Source: Acidimicrobiia bacterium
GTDB lineage: Bacteria; Actinomycetota; Acidimicrobiia; Spongiisociales; UBA5794
DNA: 64,000 bases
Reading direction: 5' to 3'
Assembly: GCA_036985855.1 (NCBI GenBank)
Contig: BTQL01000007.1
Coordinates: 3,060 to 67,059 of the forward strand
Below, in pieces: positions 18,710-27,231 of the stretch. The first letter of the stretch is position 1. Each line of letters starts with the position of its first letter. Under the pieces are notes generated by a model. It had not been told where the DNA came from. It was given only the letters and a program-made list of their open reading frames with translations, and searched no databases. Position numbers and translations under genes: made by a program.

Positions 18710-20452
18710 TCAGTCCCGATCGGGGGTTACGCCAAGCTGGTGAAGTGCGTTCTGCGCAACCTCGGCGAAAACAGGTGCCGCAGAAGCTCCACCGAACGAC
18801 AGGTCGGTGCCGTCCGGAAGACGACCGTTCGGCGAGTCCAGAACGACAACGACAACGACCTTCGGATCATTGAGCGGAGCCATACCTATGAAAGACGCAG
18901 TCGTTGCGTTCGAGTAGGCGCCGGCTTCAACGTCGAACTTCTGGCTCGTTCCCGTCTTTCCGCCCGCTGTGTAGTCGGTCATGCGCCCGCGTCGACCGGT
19001 GCCCTTGTCGGTCTCGACGACACGGCCGAGCATTCGACGCATCTCGGAAGCCGTATCGGGAGAAAGGACACGGCGCGACCTCGCGTGTGTCTCGATCCTC
19101 GTACCGTCAGGCCTGAGGATCTCCTCGACCAGGTACGGCTCGGTCCACACACCATCATTGGCGATCGTTGCGTACACAGCGGCCATCTGGAGCGCCGTGG
19201 TTCCGACTGCGTATCCGATCGCGATCGATGACCCGCTCGTCTGGGTCCAGATCTTCGTCGGGTCGAGTTTGCCTTGTCTTTCGCCTGCGACGTCGAGTCC
19301 TGACGCTCGACCAAGACCGAACGCCGTCAGGTACTCGTAATGCAGTTCATTTCCGAGTCGGCGTTGAATCTCGATTGTTCCGACGTTCGAGGACCTCTGC
19401 AGGACGTCTTCTACCGGCATCCAATCGGGATAACTGGCGTGGTCCTGATATACGAATTCGCCGACGGTCACGGTCTTCGGTGTATCGATCGGTGTCTGAG
19501 GGGTAACCACACCTTCCTCGATCGCTGCAGCGATCGTGATGGTCTTGAGCGTAGATCCCGGCTCGTACACGTCTGCGACCGCCCGATTGCGCAAGACGGC
19601 TGGCGTGATCTCAGATCGGTCGTTGAGATCAAGACCCGGCCAGCTCGCCATCGCAACCACCTCGCCGGTCCCCGGCAGCAGGACAACGATGGAGCCACCG
19701 ACCGCGTTCGTTGTTTGTATCGCCTTGCGAAGCGCTTGCTCGGCAATGAACTGGATCTCACGATCGATGGTCGTGATGATGTCACTACCCGGAACCGCTG
19801 GCTCGACAAGTACCTGACCCTGGGGAATCGCACGACCACCTGGGTCGACTTCGACGACGATCTTCCCTGCGCGACCCTCGAGCTCGGAGTTGAACGTCTT
19901 TTCGAGACCTTCGATACCCGAGTTGTCGTCCAGGCGGAGGAGCCCGATCACCTGGGCGGCGACCGAACCGGCCGGGTAGACGCGGAGTGGCTGATCCCTG
20001 TAGAAGACGCCGATGATCCCCGCGGCATCGACAGCATCCTCAACCACGGCCTTCATCCTTTTCTCGACCCGCATGGCGATCTCGAGGTACCTACGTTCGT
20101 CCGCTTGACCCTCGACAAACTCGGCGAGAAGATCCTCGTACGACTTGCTCGAGAATGGGGCGAGAACCGTAGCAGCAGCCTGTGGGTCATCGATCAACAT
20201 GGGGTCGACCAAGATGTTGTAACCATTGATCGTCATCGCGAGCTCGATGCCTTCCCTGTCATAGATCGTTCCACGCGGCGGATCGATGGCCCGTTCGCGG
20301 ATGCGCTGGTCGAAACCATATTCAGCATTCGCAAGCGCCTGGCTGCCCTGCAAGTCGAAGAGCCTGAATCCGATGCCACCCCAGGAAAGAATGAAAGCGA
20401 GTCCGACGAGAAGCAACCGAAGGTCGCCTCTCTTCCAGATGTGGGCATTCAT
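18710..20452 (-). CDS. ftsI: Class B penicillin-binding protein FtsI
   Basis: N-terminal TM, RGTIYDR, SxxK (PGSTLK), SxN (SSNVG), KTG (GKTGT). Alternative start 20476. Confidence 0.96.
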   Translation of the reverse strand: MNAHIWKRGDLRLLLVGLAFILSWGGIGFRLFDLQGSQALANAEYGFDQRIRERAIDPPRGTIYDREGIELAMTINGYNILVDPMLIDDPQAAATVLAPFSSKSYEDLLAEFVEGQADERRYLEIAMRVEKRMKAVVEDAVDAAGIIGVFYRDQPLRVYPAGSVAAQVIGLLRLDDNSGIEGLEKTFNSELEGRAGKIVVEVDPGGRAIPQGQVLVEPAVPGSDIITTIDREIQFIAEQALRKAIQTTNAVGGSIVVLLPGTGEVVAMASWPGLDLNDRSEITPAVLRNRAVADVYEPGSTLKTITIAAAIEEGVVTPQTPIDTPKTVTVGEFVYQDHASYPDWMPVEDVLQRSSNVGTIEIQRRLGNELHYEYLTAFGLGRASGLDVAGERQGKLDPTKIWTQTSGSSIAIGYAVGTTALQMAAVYATIANDGVWTEPYLVEEILRPDGTRIETHARSRRVLSPDTASEMRRMLGRVVETDKGTGRRGRMTDYTAGGKTGTSQKFDVEAGAYSNATTASFIGMAPLNDPKVVVVVVLDSPNGRLPDGTDLSFGGASAAPVFAEVAQNALHQLGVTPDRD

Positions 20453-20462
20453 CCCTTCGCCA

Positions 20463-20864
20463 TCATGGACGTTCACCGGTCATGGCTCTCACAGGCTGCT
20501 CGGATTCGAGGATCTGTGCATCAGCAACGAACCGGTCCATCACAACGGCGATGCGCTCTTCGGGGTAGACCAACCCGATTCGTTGGGCTTCCGTGGCGAT
20601 TCTCAGAGGGTCCTGGAGTCCGGCGAGGTCGTATCGAAGATCGAGTTGACGTGACTGCTGCACAGCGATCTCCGTTTCGATTCTGTCGAGTTCGAACGCC
20701 GTCTGGTCGAGGGAGATTCGCAGGTAGATCATCGCAAAGAAGACCGCTACCACTCCGATCGCGAACAGGACGAGAGGAAAGATTCGAGGCCCCGATGTCC
20801 GCACGCGATCGTCGCTGTCATGCCGGGCCAAGAGATCGCTGTACGGAATGGCATGCACGGTCAT
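20463..20864 (-). CDS. ftsL: Cell division protein FtsL-like
   Basis: One TM plus a short coiled coil and the RIATEAQRIGL motif; lies between rsmH and ftsI. Confidence 0.8.
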   Translation of the reverse strand: MTVHAIPYSDLLARHDSDDRVRTSGPRIFPLVLFAIGVVAVFFAMIYLRISLDQTAFELDRIETEIAVQQSRQLDLRYDLAGLQDPLRIATEAQRIGLVYPEERIAVVMDRFVADAQILESEQPVRAMTGERP

Positions 20865-21793
20865 GAGATTCGTTCTCCAGCTCGCAGCACGGCGCTGCGG
20901 GATCGTGGATTGTCTTTCACTTCGTCATCAGACGGACGAACAGCTTTCGGCGTGAGGATCCTGAAGTCTGGAGCAGCACCGCAGACACATGTCGGAAAAT
21001 CCGGAGGACAGATGCAGGTACGCGCTCTGTCGAGGAACGCTCGCTTGACGATGCGATCCTCCAAAGAGTGATAGGCCATCACCACGAGCCGACCTCCGAT
21101 CGTAAGCCGGTCGAAGGCTGCGACCATGAAGCCGGCGACACCCTCAAGCTCATCGTTGACAGCGATCCTGAGCGCCTGGAAGACTTTCCGCGCCGGATGA
21201 CCGCCTCTTCGCGCGGCAGCAGGAACAGCGTTGGCGACGCATTCAGCAAGATCGACGGTGTCCATGATCGGGCGCCTGGCAACGATCGCTGCTGCGATGC
21301 GGCGCGCGTGCCGCTCCTCGCCGTACCGCTTGAAGATCGAAACAAGCTCTTGTTCTTCGCAGTTGTTGACGAGTTCAGCCGCGCTACGGGCGGCGTCAGG
21401 ACCCATACGCATATCGAGACGGCCAGACCGGTGATATGAGAAACCGCGGTGATCCGTGTCGAGCTGATGGGACGAAACACCGAGATCGCAGAGAATGCCC
21501 TCAACCTTGTCGGGGAACTCGGCCCGGTTGAGGACATCGTCGAGGTCGCGGAAGTTGGCTTCAACGACCGCGAGGCGGGGATCGTCGAACGCCTGGTCAA
21601 CAGCATCCGGGTCGCGGTCGATACCGATAACGCGAATAGTTGGAAATCGGTCAAGGAGCGCACGGCTATGCCCTCCCCCGCCGTAGGTGCAGTCGACGAT
21701 CCAACCGTGGGCTGCTGGTTCCAGCCATGACACCACCTCTGGGACCATTACCGGTATGTGGTATGTCTCGTCGCTTGATGTGGGCTGATCCAT
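20861..21793 (-). CDS. rsmH: 16S rRNA m4C1402 methyltransferase
   Basis: HIPVM, DCTYGGGGHS, DLGVSSHQLD, LDMRM, FQALRIAVNDEL, YHSLEDRIVK, NPRSRSA.LR. Confidence 0.98.
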   Translation of the reverse strand: MDQPTSSDETYHIPVMVPEVVSWLEPAAHGWIVDCTYGGGGHSRALLDRFPTIRVIGIDRDPDAVDQAFDDPRLAVVEANFRDLDDVLNRAEFPDKVEGILCDLGVSSHQLDTDHRGFSYHRSGRLDMRMGPDAARSAAELVNNCEEQELVSIFKRYGEERHARRIAAAIVARRPIMDTVDLAECVANAVPAAARRGGHPARKVFQALRIAVNDELEGVAGFMVAAFDRLTIGGRLVVMAYHSLEDRIVKRAFLDRARTCICPPDFPTCVCGAAPDFRILTPKAVRPSDDEVKDNPRSRSAVLRAGERIS

Positions 21794-21913: not shown

Positions 21914-22345
21914 TCATATTCCGTCCTCAGTCAGTACCTCCTCGATTGCGGCGTAGTAGTCGTCGGCCTCGGCGGCAACGTTCTCCCACGTCGCGGAATC
22001 CCAGATCTCGACGTGATCCGCGACACCAACAACCGTTATGTCCTTCGCCAGCCCCGCATACACCCTGAGCGCTTCCGGAATCTGACATCGGCCCGTCCTG
22101 TCGAGCGTCTGGCTCGACGCGGAGGCGAAGAATGAGCGGGAGAAGTTCCTTGCCCGACGGTCCGTGCGCGGAAGCTTCAGCACACGCTGCGCCTCGTTCT
22201 CCCACTGGTCCATGGGAAAAACGTAAAGACACCGCTCCTGCCCCTTGGTCACGACACAGCCATCGCTGAAACCCTCGCGGAACCTGGATGGCATGACAAC
22301 GCGCCCTTTTGCGTCGAGTGAATGGCTGAATTCGCCAAGGAACAT
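21914..22345 (-). CDS. mraZ: Division/cell wall cluster transcriptional repressor MraZ
   Basis: MFLGEFSHSLDAKGRV (DxKGR), second repeat LDRTGR, GVADHVEIW. Confidence 0.98.
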   Translation of the reverse strand: MFLGEFSHSLDAKGRVVMPSRFREGFSDGCVVTKGQERCLYVFPMDQWENEAQRVLKLPRTDRRARNFSRSFFASASSQTLDRTGRCQIPEALRVYAGLAKDITVVGVADHVEIWDSATWENVAAEADDYYAAIEEVLTEDGI

Positions 22346-22380
22346 GGTCCGCTGTCTCCATCATCATCATCGGGATGTCT

Positions 22381-22445
22381 CCCACGAGAACCCACTATGG
22401 CCCACTCTATGACACTTGTCAACACAATGGCACACGGAAACCCAC
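22381..22445 (-). repeat. Array of seven 10-bp-phased GTG(GG) boxes (putative MraZ operator)
   Basis: Minus strand: GTGGG tttcc GTGTG ccatt GTGTT gacaa GTGTC ataga GTGGG ccata GTGGG ttctc GTGGG. Confidence 0.8.
22394..22422 (-). promoter_or_regulatory. Sigma70-type promoter of the mraZ/dcw operon
   Basis: TTGACA (22422-22417), N17, CATAGT (22399-22394) on the minus strand, embedded in the box array. Confidence 0.7.
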
Positions 22446-22613
22446 CGCACACTCGTGTGCAGATAACTCGGTCACCACCTCGTTCAGAGCACAGAGCTCA
22501 GATGCCGCTTGGCTCTCTTTCGGACATCCGTTTCCCTACCCCTCCCCCAAATCCAGCGAAGACGCCCTGTTCCGTCTACCGTCTACGGTCAACAGATTCT
22601 CGGAGGCTCTCTC

Positions 22614-23126
22614 ATGCACGTATTGGTCGCCACAGACGGAAGCAGCAGCATCGACGAGATGGCGAAGTTCGCATACGCGCTTGCCGGCTCGGACGGAACC
22701 ACCACAGTGACAACGGTCGTCCCGGTACCACGCCAACTGGTCGCACAGTTGCGCGAACAGTGGGGCGAGCCGGCACCGATATCCGTCGATACCGACGCAG
22801 AGTACGTGGGTGCCCCGGAGGTTGCAGGCGCCATCGCGAAGAGCTTTCCAGGCGATGACGCTGTGGTCGATCAGTACCTCGGTAACAAACGCGTCGAAGT
22901 CTGCAATCCGGTGCGCGAGGCGGTCCGCGAACTCGGAGGGCCCGCAGAGTCCAGGGTCAGTGAGGGAACGGATGTCGCTGGTGAAATCATGGCAACCGCC
23001 GCGAGTATCGATGCAGATGTGATCGTGATCGGATCCCACGGACACGGCGCGTTCCAAGGACTGCTCGGATCGACCGGAGCGAAACTTGTACGCAGGGCAA
23101 AACGTCCCGTGCTCGTGCTCAGGTAG
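22614..23126 (+). CDS. Universal stress protein
   Basis: Start re-picked at ATG 22614 (MHVLVATDGS). DVIVIGSHGHG...LLGSTGAKLVRRAKRPVLVLR. Confidence 0.93.
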   Translation: MHVLVATDGSSSIDEMAKFAYALAGSDGTTTVTTVVPVPRQLVAQLREQWGEPAPISVDTDAEYVGAPEVAGAIAKSFPGDDAVVDQYLGNKRVEVCNPVREAVRELGGPAESRVSEGTDVAGEIMATAASIDADVIVIGSHGHGAFQGLLGSTGAKLVRRAKRPVLVLR

Positions 23127-23158
23127 CAGGGACCTTGGCGACCACGCTTGAGCGATGA

Positions 23159-23187
23159 TTGACCACTCAACGCGCTGGTGCGATAAT
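23159..23187 (+). promoter_or_regulatory. Sigma70-type promoter of the recombinase-like gene
   Basis: TTGACC, N17, GATAAT with a TG extended -10; followed by GGAGG/GGAAGG before ATG 23208. Confidence 0.6.
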
Positions 23188-23207
23188 CGGAGGGCAAGGA
23201 AGGCATC

Positions 23208-23732
23208 ATGAAAATCGCCGGTTATGTACGACAGACTCCAGGGAGAACGGATCCGGATTCGGCATTCAGCCAGAGCGAACGCATTCGGCGCTGGGTTGCA
23301 GACACATCCAATGAGCTCATCGCAGTGTGCCAGGACCACCACGCCGCGTCCGCACAGACCGACAGACCGGGCTTCAGAGCACTTCTCGAGATTGTGCGAT
23401 CCAACAGCGCAGACGCTGTCGTGATAGCGAACCTGTCCGCCCTCTCCCCGGACAAGATGACTCAGGAGATCATGATCCAGGATCTCCTGAGAGCGGGCAT
23501 AACGGTGATCGCCACCGATGAGACCGACATTGCGGCCTTGCAATCGAGCGAAGATGACCACGCACGCATGCTCGTTCGTGACGTTCTCGCCCGGATCGCG
23601 GAGTATCGAGAGGCCTTTGGCCTGTCGGGAGAGGTTGAACCCTCCGATCAGCCCGGTGTGATCAACGCGGACCTAACCCTCACCAAGGAAACCACCGACG
23701 TGGTAGTCGAGCTGATCACCCCGGGAGCGTAG
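23208..23732 (+). CDS. Serine recombinase (resolvase) catalytic-domain-like protein, catalytic residues degenerate
   Basis: GYVRQT (canonical Y.RVS), Q..I, D...S...DRPGF..LL, VVIANLSALS (canonical DRL.R), E-helix AEYRE; no C-terminal DNA-binding domain. Confidence 0.75.
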   Translation: MKIAGYVRQTPGRTDPDSAFSQSERIRRWVADTSNELIAVCQDHHAASAQTDRPGFRALLEIVRSNSADAVVIANLSALSPDKMTQEIMIQDLLRAGITVIATDETDIAALQSSEDDHARMLVRDVLARIAEYREAFGLSGEVEPSDQPGVINADLTLTKETTDVVVELITPGA

Positions 23733-24898: not shown

Positions 24899-25075
24899 CT
24901 CGATACGACGATAACCGACAAAACCTGACGTGTCGTCCTCCCGCGTGCCTGCAAATGCAGCAGAGACGTCCGTGTACCCTGTCCTGTCATGGTGCCGACA
25001 GAAGTCTTTCGGTCACCGAAGTTCCGATTCGCAGGTATTGTCAACACGATTCGACCCGGCATTGGAGGAGGCGAC

Positions 25076-26047
25076 GTGCCCGTGACATCCGACGAACTCG
25101 CTTGGTTCGACGACCGATTTCAAGCGGTTGCCGGAAACATCGAACGCGTCATCCAGGGGAAACGTGAATCGATCGAGCTTGTCGTGACGAGTCTCGTCGC
25201 AGAAGGCCATGTTCTCATCGAGGACGTTCCTGGGGTGGGTAAGACGCTTCTGGCGAAGTCTCTCGCACGCTCGATCGACTGCTCGTTCCAGAGAATCCAA
25301 TTCACCCCTGACCTGCTTCCATCAGACGTCACAGGTGTTTCGGTGTGGAGCAGGGAGCAAGGAACCTTCACCTTCCGCGCCGGTCCGGTCTTCGCGAACG
25401 TGCTGCTCGGTGACGAGATCAACAGGGCGAGTCCAAAGACTCAGGCAGCACTTCTCGAAGCTATGGAGGAGCGTCAGGTCACCGTTGATGGAGAAACGCA
25501 CATTCTCGACGCACCGTTCATCGTCATCGCAACACAGAACCCGATCGAACATGAGGGCACCTATCCCCTGCCCGAGGCCCAACTCGACCGATTCATGATG
25601 CGAGTGACCATGGGATACCCGGACCGCGTGAAAGAGCTCGAGATGCTTCAGACGCACGGGGAACACTCGAGTTTCGTCGATCTCAAGCCCGTTGTACACG
25701 CCGAGGATGTGATTCGGATGGCTTCGATCGCCAGGGAGATCCACGTTGCGGATGTTCTGCGCGGTTACCTCATCGATCTGGCCGAAATGACTCGATCTCA
25801 TCCCGACATTCTCCTTGGCGCGTCTCCGAGGGCGACACTGTTCCTGCAAAGAGCCGCACGTACCATCGCGGCCGCCGACGGTCGTGACTATGCAAGCCCG
25901 GACGATGTCAAATCCATTCTCACACCGGTTCTCAATCACAGACTGATCCTCCGTCCGGAAGCTCAGATGCGCGGAACGACCGTAGACGAAGTTCTCGCGC
26001 AGATTTCCGCTTCGGTTCCCGTTCCCGGGACGCGGGACGCCCGCTGA
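25076..26047 (+). CDS. MoxR-family AAA+ ATPase
   Basis: Start re-picked at GTG 25076 after GGAGGAGG. GHVLIEDVPGVGKT, RIQFTPDLLPSD, DEINRA.PKTQ.ALLEAMEE, TQNP.E.EGTYPLPEAQLDRF. Confidence 0.96.
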   Translation: MPVTSDELAWFDDRFQAVAGNIERVIQGKRESIELVVTSLVAEGHVLIEDVPGVGKTLLAKSLARSIDCSFQRIQFTPDLLPSDVTGVSVWSREQGTFTFRAGPVFANVLLGDEINRASPKTQAALLEAMEERQVTVDGETHILDAPFIVIATQNPIEHEGTYPLPEAQLDRFMMRVTMGYPDRVKELEMLQTHGEHSSFVDLKPVVHAEDVIRMASIAREIHVADVLRGYLIDLAEMTRSHPDILLGASPRATLFLQRAARTIAAADGRDYASPDDVKSILTPVLNHRLILRPEAQMRGTTVDEVLAQISASVPVPGTRDAR

Positions 26048-27231
26048 TGCCCACCTTTCGGGGCTGGGCGGCCACAGGGGCCGCCGCAGCGCTCGTACTT
26101 CTCTGGCTGGCATTCGGCGAGGACTTACTGCTCGCTTTGGCGATCTTTCTGATCACCGCCGTTGTCGGAGGAACGGCCTACGTCCGTGTATCCGGTCCGA
26201 AACTTGCGCTCCGGCGCGTCATCAATCCCGAGCAGCTCCACGACGGGGAGCGAGCTCTCGTCGACCTGTCACTGGAATCCAAGCGAAAGGTCTACCGCGT
26301 ACGGGTCGAAGACAGAGTGCACGGTCTCGGTTCGGCTACCTTCGTCGCGGATCGTGTGGCATCCGGGGACACGATGGCAGGGCGATATGAGGTGCTTTGC
26401 AGACCGAGAGGGGTTTACAAGGTAGGTCCATCGCATGTCTCCGTAACGGATCCAATCGGTTTTGCAGAAGCAACCTCAAAGGCAGGGATCGTTGATCGCC
26501 TGGTGGTGTATCCAAGGGTCGAAGACCTTACAGGCGTGCCCACCGGCCGCGGCCAGGATCAAACCATCAGCACGTCAAGAGCGAGCTTCTGGCACACGGG
26601 GGGAGAGGATTTCTTCACGCTGCGCGAGTACCAGCAGGGCGACGACCTCCGGAAGGTGCATTGGCCGTCGTCGGCAAGACGGGATCAGCTGATGATCAAA
26701 CAGCTGGAGATGCCTTGGCAATCGCGGGCGTTCATCGTGCTCGATCCCCGCGTCGAACCTCACCAATCAGCGGAGAGCTTCGAACAGGCGGTCAAAGGCA
26801 CGGCTTCGGTGCTGCGTCATCTGTTCAGAAGTGGCTACACGCCAACGATCTGGGCGGGGAGCGGCAACGGAACCGTCGTCGGGAACGCAGGGGCGTACAG
26901 ACTGGCGATGGAGGAACTGGCGACGATCGCACCTCACCGATCGTTGGATCTTCGCCACCTGATCAGCAGGCTCAGACGCAGCGGCATGGCCGGCGGAGTC
27001 CTCGTGATGGTGACGGGCAGCGCGGATGAAGCTGACCTTGCCGCCTTCCAGCTTCTCAGTCAGGATTTCTACAGAACGGTGGTGCTATCTGTCGAACAAG
27101 GGGATAATGACGAGATCCTTGGGTTCGCACGAGCTGGCGCCCTCGTTGTTCGCACGACGCCAGACGGCGCGTGGGCTGACCCTTGGCGAAACGCAATGGA
27201 GCACGGATGGTCTACCGCTTCAGCTGGATAG
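26047..27231 (+). CDS. DUF58 domain membrane protein
   Basis: N-terminal TMs, Ig-like segment, LREYQQGDDLRKVHWPSSAR motif; follows moxR. Confidence 0.93.
   Translation: MPTFRGWAATGAAAALVLLWLAFGEDLLLALAIFLITAVVGGTAYVRVSGPKLALRRVINPEQLHDGERALVDLSLESKRKVYRVRVEDRVHGLGSATFVADRVASGDTMAGRYEVLCRPRGVYKVGPSHVSVTDPIGFAEATSKAGIVDRLVVYPRVEDLTGVPTGRGQDQTISTSRASFWHTGGEDFFTLREYQQGDDLRKVHWPSSARRDQLMIKQLEMPWQSRAFIVLDPRVEPHQSAESFEQAVKGTASVLRHLFRSGYTPTIWAGSGNGTVVGNAGAYRLAMEELATIAPHRSLDLRHLISRLRRSGMAGGVLVMVTGSADEADLAAFQLLSQDFYRTVVLSVEQGDNDEILGFARAGALVVRTTPDGAWADPWRNAMEHGWSTASAG

What the first reader, a model, noticed from the sequence alone, without database searches (positions are those of the whole stretch)
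22381..22445. Seven helically phased GTG boxes covering the dcw promoter
Seen: NNCAC at exact 10-bp spacing at 22381, 22391, 22401, 22411, 22421, 22431 and 22441 (four perfect CCCAC), spanning a TTGACA-N17-CATAGT promoter. Known: MraZ forms oligomeric rings and represses its own operon through about 3-4 GTG(G/T)-type boxes spaced 10 bp apart. Inference: seven phased boxes could engage most of a ring or two rings, allowing DNA wrapping or graded repression.
Basis: partly seen in the sequence, partly recalled or inferred. Interest (0 to 1): 0.65.

Follow-up and report, generated by a model that had tools for sequence, protein, structure and literature searches.

The report
Seven-box MraZ operator over mraZ promoter
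The promoter of the cell-division operon in this uncultured Acidimicrobiia bacterium is covered by seven evenly spaced copies of the short sequence that the division repressor MraZ recognises, against the three or four described so far, which makes it a long natural variant of a known control element and not a new kind of system.

Summary
Seven CAC triplets, which read GTG(G/T) on the mraZ-sense strand, lie exactly 10 bp apart at 22381-22445. This is the only run longer than three boxes in the window and the longest in the 2.47-Mb genome bin. The boxes span a TTGACA-N17-CATAGT promoter directly upstream of mraZ-rsmH-ftsL-ftsI. The local MraZ keeps all DNA-contact residues (D11, K13, R15, D82, R86).

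In 43 non-redundant relatives from the same order:
- Boxes 1-4 are nearly invariant (GTG, or A/GTGG at box 3, in 91-100%).
- Box 5 is fused to the -35 hexamer and is partly kept.
- The positions of boxes 6 and 7 carry conserved, phased G-rich (K-G-G) elements (p about 1e-23 and 1e-14). These are mostly not strict GTG and usually sit 1 bp off register.

Other Actinomycetes in the sample have 2-3 boxes. The papers I found describe 3 or 4.

Best reading: this is an extended MraZ auto-operator running from about -58 to +7, with one subunit bound per box. The published cryo-EM work shows the MraZ ring must open and lie along roughly straight DNA, so wrapping around a ring is not supported. Graded, cooperative repression remains plausible. 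Binding of boxes 5-7 is inferred, not shown. I class it as a new variant of a known kind, of moderate interest.

The parts
22441..22445 (-). Box 7, GTGGG, predicted -58..-54
   Evidence: Slot 7 in relatives has GG at the matching columns in 26/43 against 4.7 expected (p 7e-15). Strict GTG is rare there.
22431..22435 (-). Box 6, GTGTG, predicted -48..-44
   Evidence: Slot 6 in relatives has GG in 33/43 against 4.7 expected (p 1e-23). The order-wide consensus is g-K-G-G, one base upstream of the strict register.
22421..22425 (-). Box 5, GTGTT. Its TT is the first two bases of the -35 hexamer. Predicted -38..-34.
   Evidence: GTGTT is present in 9 of the 10 same-genus sequences, including this one. 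Across the order it is GTG in 37%, with G at the third position in 88%.
22417..22422 (-). -35 hexamer TTGACA
   Evidence: TTGACA was the anchor used to select and align the 43 relatives, so its invariance there is by construction. It is independently invariant in the 15-sequence MAFFT alignment.
22411..22415 (-). Box 4, GTGTC, directly after the -35. Predicted -28..-24.
   Evidence: GTG is present in 95% of relatives. The fourth base is G in 84% and T in 16%.
22401..22405 (-). Box 3, GTGGG, in the spacer. Predicted -18..-14.
   Evidence: (G/A)TGG: the TGG part is present in 91-100% of relatives.
22394..22399 (-). -10 hexamer CATAGT. Its last two bases, GT, are the first two bases of box 2.
   Evidence: The hexamer's second base (A, 22398) and last base (T, 22394) are invariant in relatives.
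22391..22395 (-). Box 2, GTGGG, predicted -8..-4
   Evidence: GTGG is present in 100% of relatives.
22381..22385 (-). Box 1, GTGGG(AGA), predicted +3..+7, at the inferred transcription start near 22387
   Evidence: GTGG is present in 93-98% of relatives. The start site is inferred from the -10 position only. In M. genitalium the start lies inside box 1.
22346..22380 (-). 5' leader carrying the conserved motif TGATGATGGAGA (Shine-Dalgarno GGAG) ahead of the mraZ ATG
   Evidence: Alignment A1
21914..22345 (-). mraZ (143 aa)
   Evidence: PF02381, E 2e-33. It aligns without gaps over residues 1-132 to M. genitalium MraZ 9qlr, with D11, K13, R15, D82 and R86 all conserved.
18710..21793 (-). Downstream operon: rsmH (20861-21793), ftsL-like gene (20463-20864), ftsI/PBP (18710-20476)

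Best explanation
The array is an extended auto-operator for the MraZ encoded immediately downstream. MraZ subunits each place their beta-sheet 'cradle' (K13, R15, R86) in the major groove of one GTG(G/T) box. Neighbouring subunits stay joined through the ring interface, so an opened ring or short filament lies along one face of the DNA.

With the start site placed from the -10 hexamer, the seven boxes fall at +3, -8, -18, -28, -38, -48 and -58. That covers the start site, the -10, the spacer, the -35 and the upstream alpha-CTD zone, which is essentially the whole RNA polymerase footprint. Occupancy therefore blocks polymerase and shuts off mraZ-rsmH-ftsL-ftsI.

Boxes 1-4 form the conserved core. 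Boxes 5-7 are auxiliary sites that add cooperative binding energy, which should lower the MraZ concentration needed for repression and sharpen the response.

Shown here: the sequence array and its statistics, its position on the predicted promoter, intact MraZ contact residues, and conservation of boxes 1-4 and of phased G-rich elements at slots 5-7.

Inferred: MraZ binding to every box, the start site, and repression as opposed to activation.
For: - Seven in-phase GTG(G/T) boxes are unique in the window and the genome.
- A single sigma-70-like promoter lies inside the array.
- mraZ is authentic and keeps D11, K13, R15, D82 and R86.
- Published structure and biochemistry: one subunit per GTG(T/G) box at 10-bp period, stepwise gain of affinity and repression per box, fibre-like assemblies on concatenated box DNA, and a start site inside box 1 (PMC12957436).
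- In 43 non-redundant relatives anchored on the -35, boxes 1-4 are 91-100% conserved. GG occurs at slot 6 in 33/43, slot 7 in 26/43 and slot 8 in 14/43, against 4.7 expected. Out-of-phase control columns sit at expectation.
- A-rich bases precede the G-rich cores at slots 5-7, as they do in the canonical boxes and the Mollicutes AAAGTG(T/G) unit.
- Slots 6 and 7 are kept equally in loci without the divergent Usp neighbour, at 24/31 and 21/31.
- Twenty other TTGACA-type promoter-like sites in the same genome show no such GG enrichment.
- A relative from another genus (L011) also has seven in-phase GTG and L042 has six.
Against: - No binding, footprint or transcript data exist for this organism.
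- In most relatives slots 6 and 7 are GGGG or TGGG, not GTG. The published base contacts are to TG(T/G). These elements also sit about 1 bp upstream of the strict register, so they could be weak MraZ sites or sites for another protein.
- Box 5's last two bases are dictated by the -35 hexamer.
- The oligomer-interface residues named in M. genitalium (F36, F52, F58) are Q, A and L here (alignment). The oligomeric state of this MraZ is therefore unknown.
- Boxes 1-3 alone already cover the -10 and the start site, so extra boxes are not needed for repression as such.
Confidence: 0.68

Rival explanations
1. This is a core-only MraZ operator with a second factor upstream. MraZ binds only the conserved proximal boxes (1-3 or 1-4). 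The phased elements at slots 6-7 serve another protein that reads direct repeats at 10-11 bp spacing, such as an OmpR-family response regulator like MtrA. Alternatively they act as an upstream promoter element. On this reading, their GTG spelling in this genome is incidental.
For: In relatives, slots 6 and 7 are mostly K-G-G or GGGG, not GTG, and are shifted about 1 bp. MtrA binds the mraZ promoter region in the actinomycete Dietzia (PMC9602371). An earlier scan note reports phased non-MraZ-like boxes upstream of mraZ in another lineage (e1-2277082; unchecked).
Against: In this genome all three distal boxes are exact GTG(G/T) in exact register with the core. The same A-rich-then-G-rich unit recurs at every slot. 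No motif specific to another regulator was identified. The G-rich slots are not a general promoter feature of this genome.
Confidence: 0.22
2. The G-tracts on the non-template strand form a G-quadruplex that controls transcription, as claimed for the S. aureus mraZ promoter.
For: PMC11796246 reports a G4 in the G-tracts of the S. aureus mraZ promoter and says similar motifs occur in other bacteria. Several relatives have four GGG tracts with 7-nt loops, for example L003.
Against: Only three adjacent GGG tracts exist here (boxes 1-3). Boxes 4-6 are GTGT with no G-tract, and the fourth tract (box 7) is 37 nt away. The T of GTG is conserved in 91-100% of relatives at boxes 1-4, which a G4 does not require.
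Confidence: 0.04
3. The distal boxes are chance or neutral drift. A 4-box operator happens to be flanked by three GTG triplets with no function.
For: GTG is a short word. The strict GTG chain is 4-5 in most relatives.
Against: Runs longer than 4 never occurred in 200 simulations. Phased conservation at slots 5-7 across 43 relatives has p values from 1e-14 to 1e-23.
Confidence: 0.05

Closest known systems
M. genitalium MraZ 4-box operator (AAAGTGT-N3 x3, then AAAGTGG); cryo-EM structures 9qlr, 9qlg and others; PMC12957436
   Same: It uses the same GTG(G/T) core, the same 10-bp period and direct orientation, and sits upstream of mraZ with box 1 at the start site. The contact residues K13, R15 and R86 are identical.
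   Different: There are seven boxes here, not four. The array spans the -35, the -10 and about 25 bp upstream of the -35. The spacers are GC-rich and lack the AAA prefix. The ring-interface residues differ.
E. coli Pmra direct repeats and B. subtilis MraZ-binding repeats (three GTGG[A/T]G); B. cenocepacia four 7-nt repeats
   Same: All are autoregulated dcw promoters with phased GTGG-type direct repeats that overlap the core promoter or start site.
   Different: Those have 3 or 4 boxes, placed at or downstream of the -10. Here four conserved boxes fill the interval from the -35 to +7, and three more extend upstream.
Tandem-operator repressors with beta-sheet DNA recognition (MetJ met-boxes, Arc, CopG)
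   Same: They bind cooperatively to a variable number of short tandem repeats, and more repeats give tighter repression. PMC12957436 itself draws this parallel. The variable met-box number is from my own knowledge.
   Different: They belong to a different protein family and fold class. This is an analogy of mechanism, not membership.

Membership tests
MraZ operator (MraZ-binding repeats at the dcw/mra promoter) | Lies directly upstream of mraZ at the head of the dcw cluster | tested here: met
   The array ends 36 bp upstream of the mraZ ATG. rsmH, ftsL and ftsI follow.
MraZ operator (MraZ-binding repeats at the dcw/mra promoter) | Direct repeats of GTG(G/T) separated by 6 nt (10-bp period), all in one orientation | tested here: met
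   Seven of seven boxes fit, at exact 10-bp spacing.
MraZ operator (MraZ-binding repeats at the dcw/mra promoter) | Overlaps the promoter or transcription start of the operon | tested here: inconclusive
   It overlaps the only predicted sigma-70-like promoter, and the hexamers are invariant in relatives.
MraZ operator (MraZ-binding repeats at the dcw/mra promoter) | The cognate MraZ has both DXXXR motifs and the base-contacting residues K13, R15 and R86 | tested here: met
   The ungapped alignment to 9qlr and 1n0e shows D11, K13, R15, D82 and R86 present.
MraZ operator (MraZ-binding repeats at the dcw/mra promoter) | Boxes conserved in related genomes | tested here: met
   Boxes 1-4 are conserved in 91-100% of relatives. 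Slots 5-7 are conserved as phased G-rich elements and only partly as GTG.
MraZ operator (MraZ-binding repeats at the dcw/mra promoter) | MraZ physically binds the boxes and changes transcription | not testable with these tools
   This needs EMSA, footprinting or a reporter assay.

The most novel reading that the evidence does not exclude
The seven boxes form a docking track for almost a whole opened MraZ octamer (7 of 8 subunits). The affinity pattern would be strong-weak-strong: GTGGG at boxes 1-3 and 7, and GTGT at boxes 4-6 over the -35. This layout would give a two-stage or biphasic switch. At low MraZ, the terminal strong sites would be occupied. Box 6-7 occupancy at about -45 to -58 could even recruit polymerase, since MraZ is reported as an activator in M. 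gallisepticum. At higher MraZ, the filament would zip across the weak -35 boxes and shut the promoter. The exact 10.0-bp spacing would force a superhelical path for the protein or the DNA.
Probability: 0.12. Interest if true: 0.7.

Novelty: new variant of a known kind. Interest (0 to 1): 0.45.

Why it matters
MraZ is among the most conserved bacterial regulators, yet how its ring-shaped oligomer reads DNA was solved only in 2026, on a 4-box site. A natural 7-box operator spanning a full RNA polymerase footprint is a ready-made substrate for three questions:
- Does the opened ring extend as a filament beyond four subunits?
- How many subunits of a ring can engage DNA?
- Does box number tune the set-point of cell-division gene expression?

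The comparative data also define a lineage-specific promoter and operator architecture: a -35 fused between boxes 5 and 4, a -10 fused to box 2, and extra upstream slots. It occurs in one order of Acidimicrobiia, a group with no genetic system. If the distal boxes are not MraZ sites, they instead mark an unidentified second regulator of the division operon.

Tried and rejected
- **Collection-wide scan for seven GTGK boxes at 10-bp period.** None of the 119 loci fetched had an mraZ nearby by tblastn. It therefore gives no census of long MraZ arrays.
- **Rfam search of the intergenic region.** No match at E up to 1.
- **G-quadruplex reading.** Rejected because the middle boxes lack G-tracts and the T of GTG is conserved.
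- **General promoter feature.** Rejected because 20 other TTGACA-type sites in the genome show background GG frequencies at the slot positions. The sample is small.
- **Distal boxes belong to the divergent Usp gene.** Rejected because slots 6 and 7 are kept equally in loci without that neighbour.
- **WhiA-type GACAC site.** Box 4 reads GACAC on the + strand. I set this aside, from my own knowledge of the WhiA motif, because relatives have GTGGC or GTGGG at that position.
- **Duplication origin for boxes 7-6.** The repeat finder pairs CACGAGAACCCAC (boxes 1-2) with CACGGAAACCCAC (boxes 6-7) at 50-bp spacing and 85% identity. Eight of the 13 positions are fixed by the boxes themselves, so this is not evidence of duplication.

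Full report
**Observation**

Reading 22000-23200 and its reverse complement shows that CAC recurs on the + strand at 22383, 22393... 22443. On the - strand the sequence is GTGGG-tttcc-GTGTG-ccatt-GTGTT-gacaa-GTGTC-ataga-GTGGG-ccata-GTGGG-ttctc-GTGGG, running from 22445 down to 22381. All seven units fit GTG(G/T).

A scan of the window for phased runs of every trinucleotide at period 10 finds this run of 7 and nothing else longer than 3. The longest CAC/GTG run in 200 Markov-1 simulations was 4. In the whole 2.47-Mb genome bin, only this array (7) and a 4-box array in front of a second mraZ on contig C15 reach four phased GTG.

The promoter scan returns one sigma-70-like site in 22200-22700, on the - strand: TTGACA (22422..22417), 17 nt, CATAGT (22399..22394).

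**Context**

The ORF at 22345..21914 (-) is MraZ (PF02381, E 2e-33). It is followed by RsmH/MraW (E 6e-102), a weak FtsL/DivIC-like ORF and a PBP/FtsI-like ORF. A universal stress protein gene starts divergently at 22614.

The nearest public relatives are Acidimicrobiia MAGs. The MraZ aligns without gaps over residues 1-132 to the M. pneumoniae and M. genitalium structures (E about 1e-19 to 4e-20). D11, K13, R15, D82 and R86 are conserved. These are the residues that hold and make the base contacts in the 2026 cryo-EM structures.

**What is known**

[quoted passage not shown] It also reports the following:
- One subunit binds one box through K13, R15 and R86, contacting TG(T/G).
- Binding and repression drop stepwise as boxes are mutated.
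- The start site lies inside box 1.
- A closed octamer cannot fit four boxes, so the ring opens and the DNA-bound assembly is roughly linear, forming fibre-like assemblies on box DNA.

B. subtilis has three GTGG[A/T]G repeats and B. cenocepacia has four repeats. Three literature searches found no description of more than four boxes, nor of actinobacterial operators of this kind.

**Comparative test**

MraZ was found in 39 of 41 related genomes, and 80 further loci came from the named collection. Upstream regions were lined up without gaps on the -35 hexamer, which gave 43 non-redundant sequences from the same order.

Boxes 1-4 are essentially fixed:

| Box | Conservation |
|---|---|
| 1 | GTGG in 93-98% |
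| 2 | GTGG in 100% |
| 3 | (G/A)TGG in 91-100% |
| 4 | GTG in 95%, fourth base G 84% / T 16% |

The -10 is fused to box 2 (CA[T/A]AGTGG), and box 4 follows the -35 directly (TTGACA-A-GTG).

Slot 5 is fused to the 5' side of the -35. It reads GTG in 37% of sequences, including nine of the ten same-genus sequences (this one among them), and has G at its third base in 88%.

Upstream of that, the sequences no longer align, yet the G frequency oscillates with a 10-bp period. GG counts at the slot columns are:

| Position | GG observed | Expected | p |
|---|---|---|---|
| Slot 6 | 33/43 | 4.7 | 1e-23 |
| Slot 7 | 26/43 | 4.7 | 7e-15 |
| Slot 8 | 14/43 | 4.7 | 1e-4 |
| Out-of-phase control columns | 3-5/43 | 4.7 | not significant |

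The order-wide consensus for slots 6 and 7 is a-a-g-K-G-G, starting one base upstream of the strict register. That puts it about 21 bp from box 4, or two turns at 10.5 bp per turn. In this genome the two boxes are true GTG in exact register.

Strict chain lengths are as follows:
- 7 here and in one other genus (L011), and 6 in L042.
- Mostly 2, 4 or 5 in the other Acidimicrobiia (4-5 once A/GTGG-type boxes are counted).
- 2-3 in the sampled Actinomycetes.
- 4-5 by relaxed criteria in Anaerolineae.

The fused pattern TTGACA-N-GTGK-N6-RTGG-N6-GTGG-N6-GTGG occurs once per genome in 25 of 301 sampled genomes of the class. All 25 are in this order, including 15 of 17 in this family, and the reversed control pattern never occurs.

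**Controls**
- Slots 6 and 7 are kept just as often where no divergent Usp gene is adjacent, at 24/31 and 21/31. They therefore belong to the mraZ promoter.
- Twenty other TTGACA-type promoter-like sites in this genome show background GG at those positions.
- No Rfam family matches the intergenic region.

**Mechanism**

Placing +1 seven bases after the -10 (about 22387) puts the boxes at +3..+7, -8..-4, -18..-14, -28..-24, -38..-34, -48..-44 and -58..-54. This is the full polymerase contact region.

The best-supported reading is an extended MraZ auto-operator. It would have one subunit per box, with an opened ring or short filament on one face of the DNA and competition with polymerase for the -35, the -10 and the start site. 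Boxes 1-4 would be the conserved core. Boxes 5-7 would be auxiliary sites that add cooperative energy.

My estimates are about 0.93 that the array is an MraZ operator at all, about 0.65-0.7 that more than four boxes are used, and about 0.5 that all seven are used. Graded, cooperative repression fits the stepwise box-mutant data but is untested here.

**Rivals**
1. *A second factor at slots 6-7.* The G-rich elements are mostly not GTG in relatives. MtrA binds the mraZ promoter in Dietzia. Probability about 0.22.
2. *A G-quadruplex, as claimed for S. aureus.* This is unlikely, because only three adjacent G-tracts exist here and the conserved T of GTG would be unexplained.
3. *Chance.* Excluded by the simulations and the phased conservation.

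**Novelty**

This is a known kind of element, the MraZ-binding repeats, in a longer form and with a lineage-specific fusion to both promoter hexamers. Earlier notes from this scan report other unusual arrangements upstream of mraZ in other lineages (unchecked), which tempers the surprise. I class it as a new variant of a known kind, with interest about 0.45.

**Limits**

The collection-wide census attempt failed. The oligomeric state of this MraZ is unknown, because the interface residues F36, F52 and F58 of M. genitalium are Q, A and L here.

Noticed in passing
G000 contig C15:1-5200 (outside the window): The genome bin holds a second, syntenic cluster: resolvase-like gene, a divergent Usp, then mraZ-rsmH-ftsL-ftsI. 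Amino-acid identity to the window's genes is 52-80%. It has its own TTGATA-type promoter and four phased GTGG boxes. This looks like a co-binned related organism and not a paralogous operon.
   Followed up: partly
window 22447-22460: A perfect palindrome, GCACAC-GA-GTGTGC, lies immediately upstream of box 7 and contains the out-of-phase eighth GTGTG. It is not conserved in the relatives examined. It could be a site for a dimeric regulator, or chance.
   Followed up: partly
window 22346-22385 (- strand): The 5' leader has a conserved TGATGATGGAGA motif before the start codon. It also has a small inverted repeat, GGGA-GACA-TCCC, starting inside box 1, which could form a 5'-terminal hairpin in the mRNA. 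The ATG repeats open an out-of-frame overlapping ORF (21927-22385) that is probably meaningless.
   Followed up: no
window 23208-23732 and 24989-27231: A serine-recombinase (resolvase) N-terminal domain gene lies next to the Usp gene. A MoxR-like AAA ATPase ORF and the ORF directly after it lie about 2.6 kb upstream of mraZ; neither was run against Pfam here. This is the same neighbourhood that an earlier scan note discusses for actinobacterial mraZ promoters.
   Followed up: no
loci L064, L065, L067, L077, L100 (Anaerolineae / Chloroflexota): The mraZ upstream regions in these loci carry 4-5 phased GTGG or TGGG boxes about 60-100 bp upstream of the start codon. Arrays longer than the textbook three are therefore not confined to Acidimicrobiia.
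   Followed up: partly
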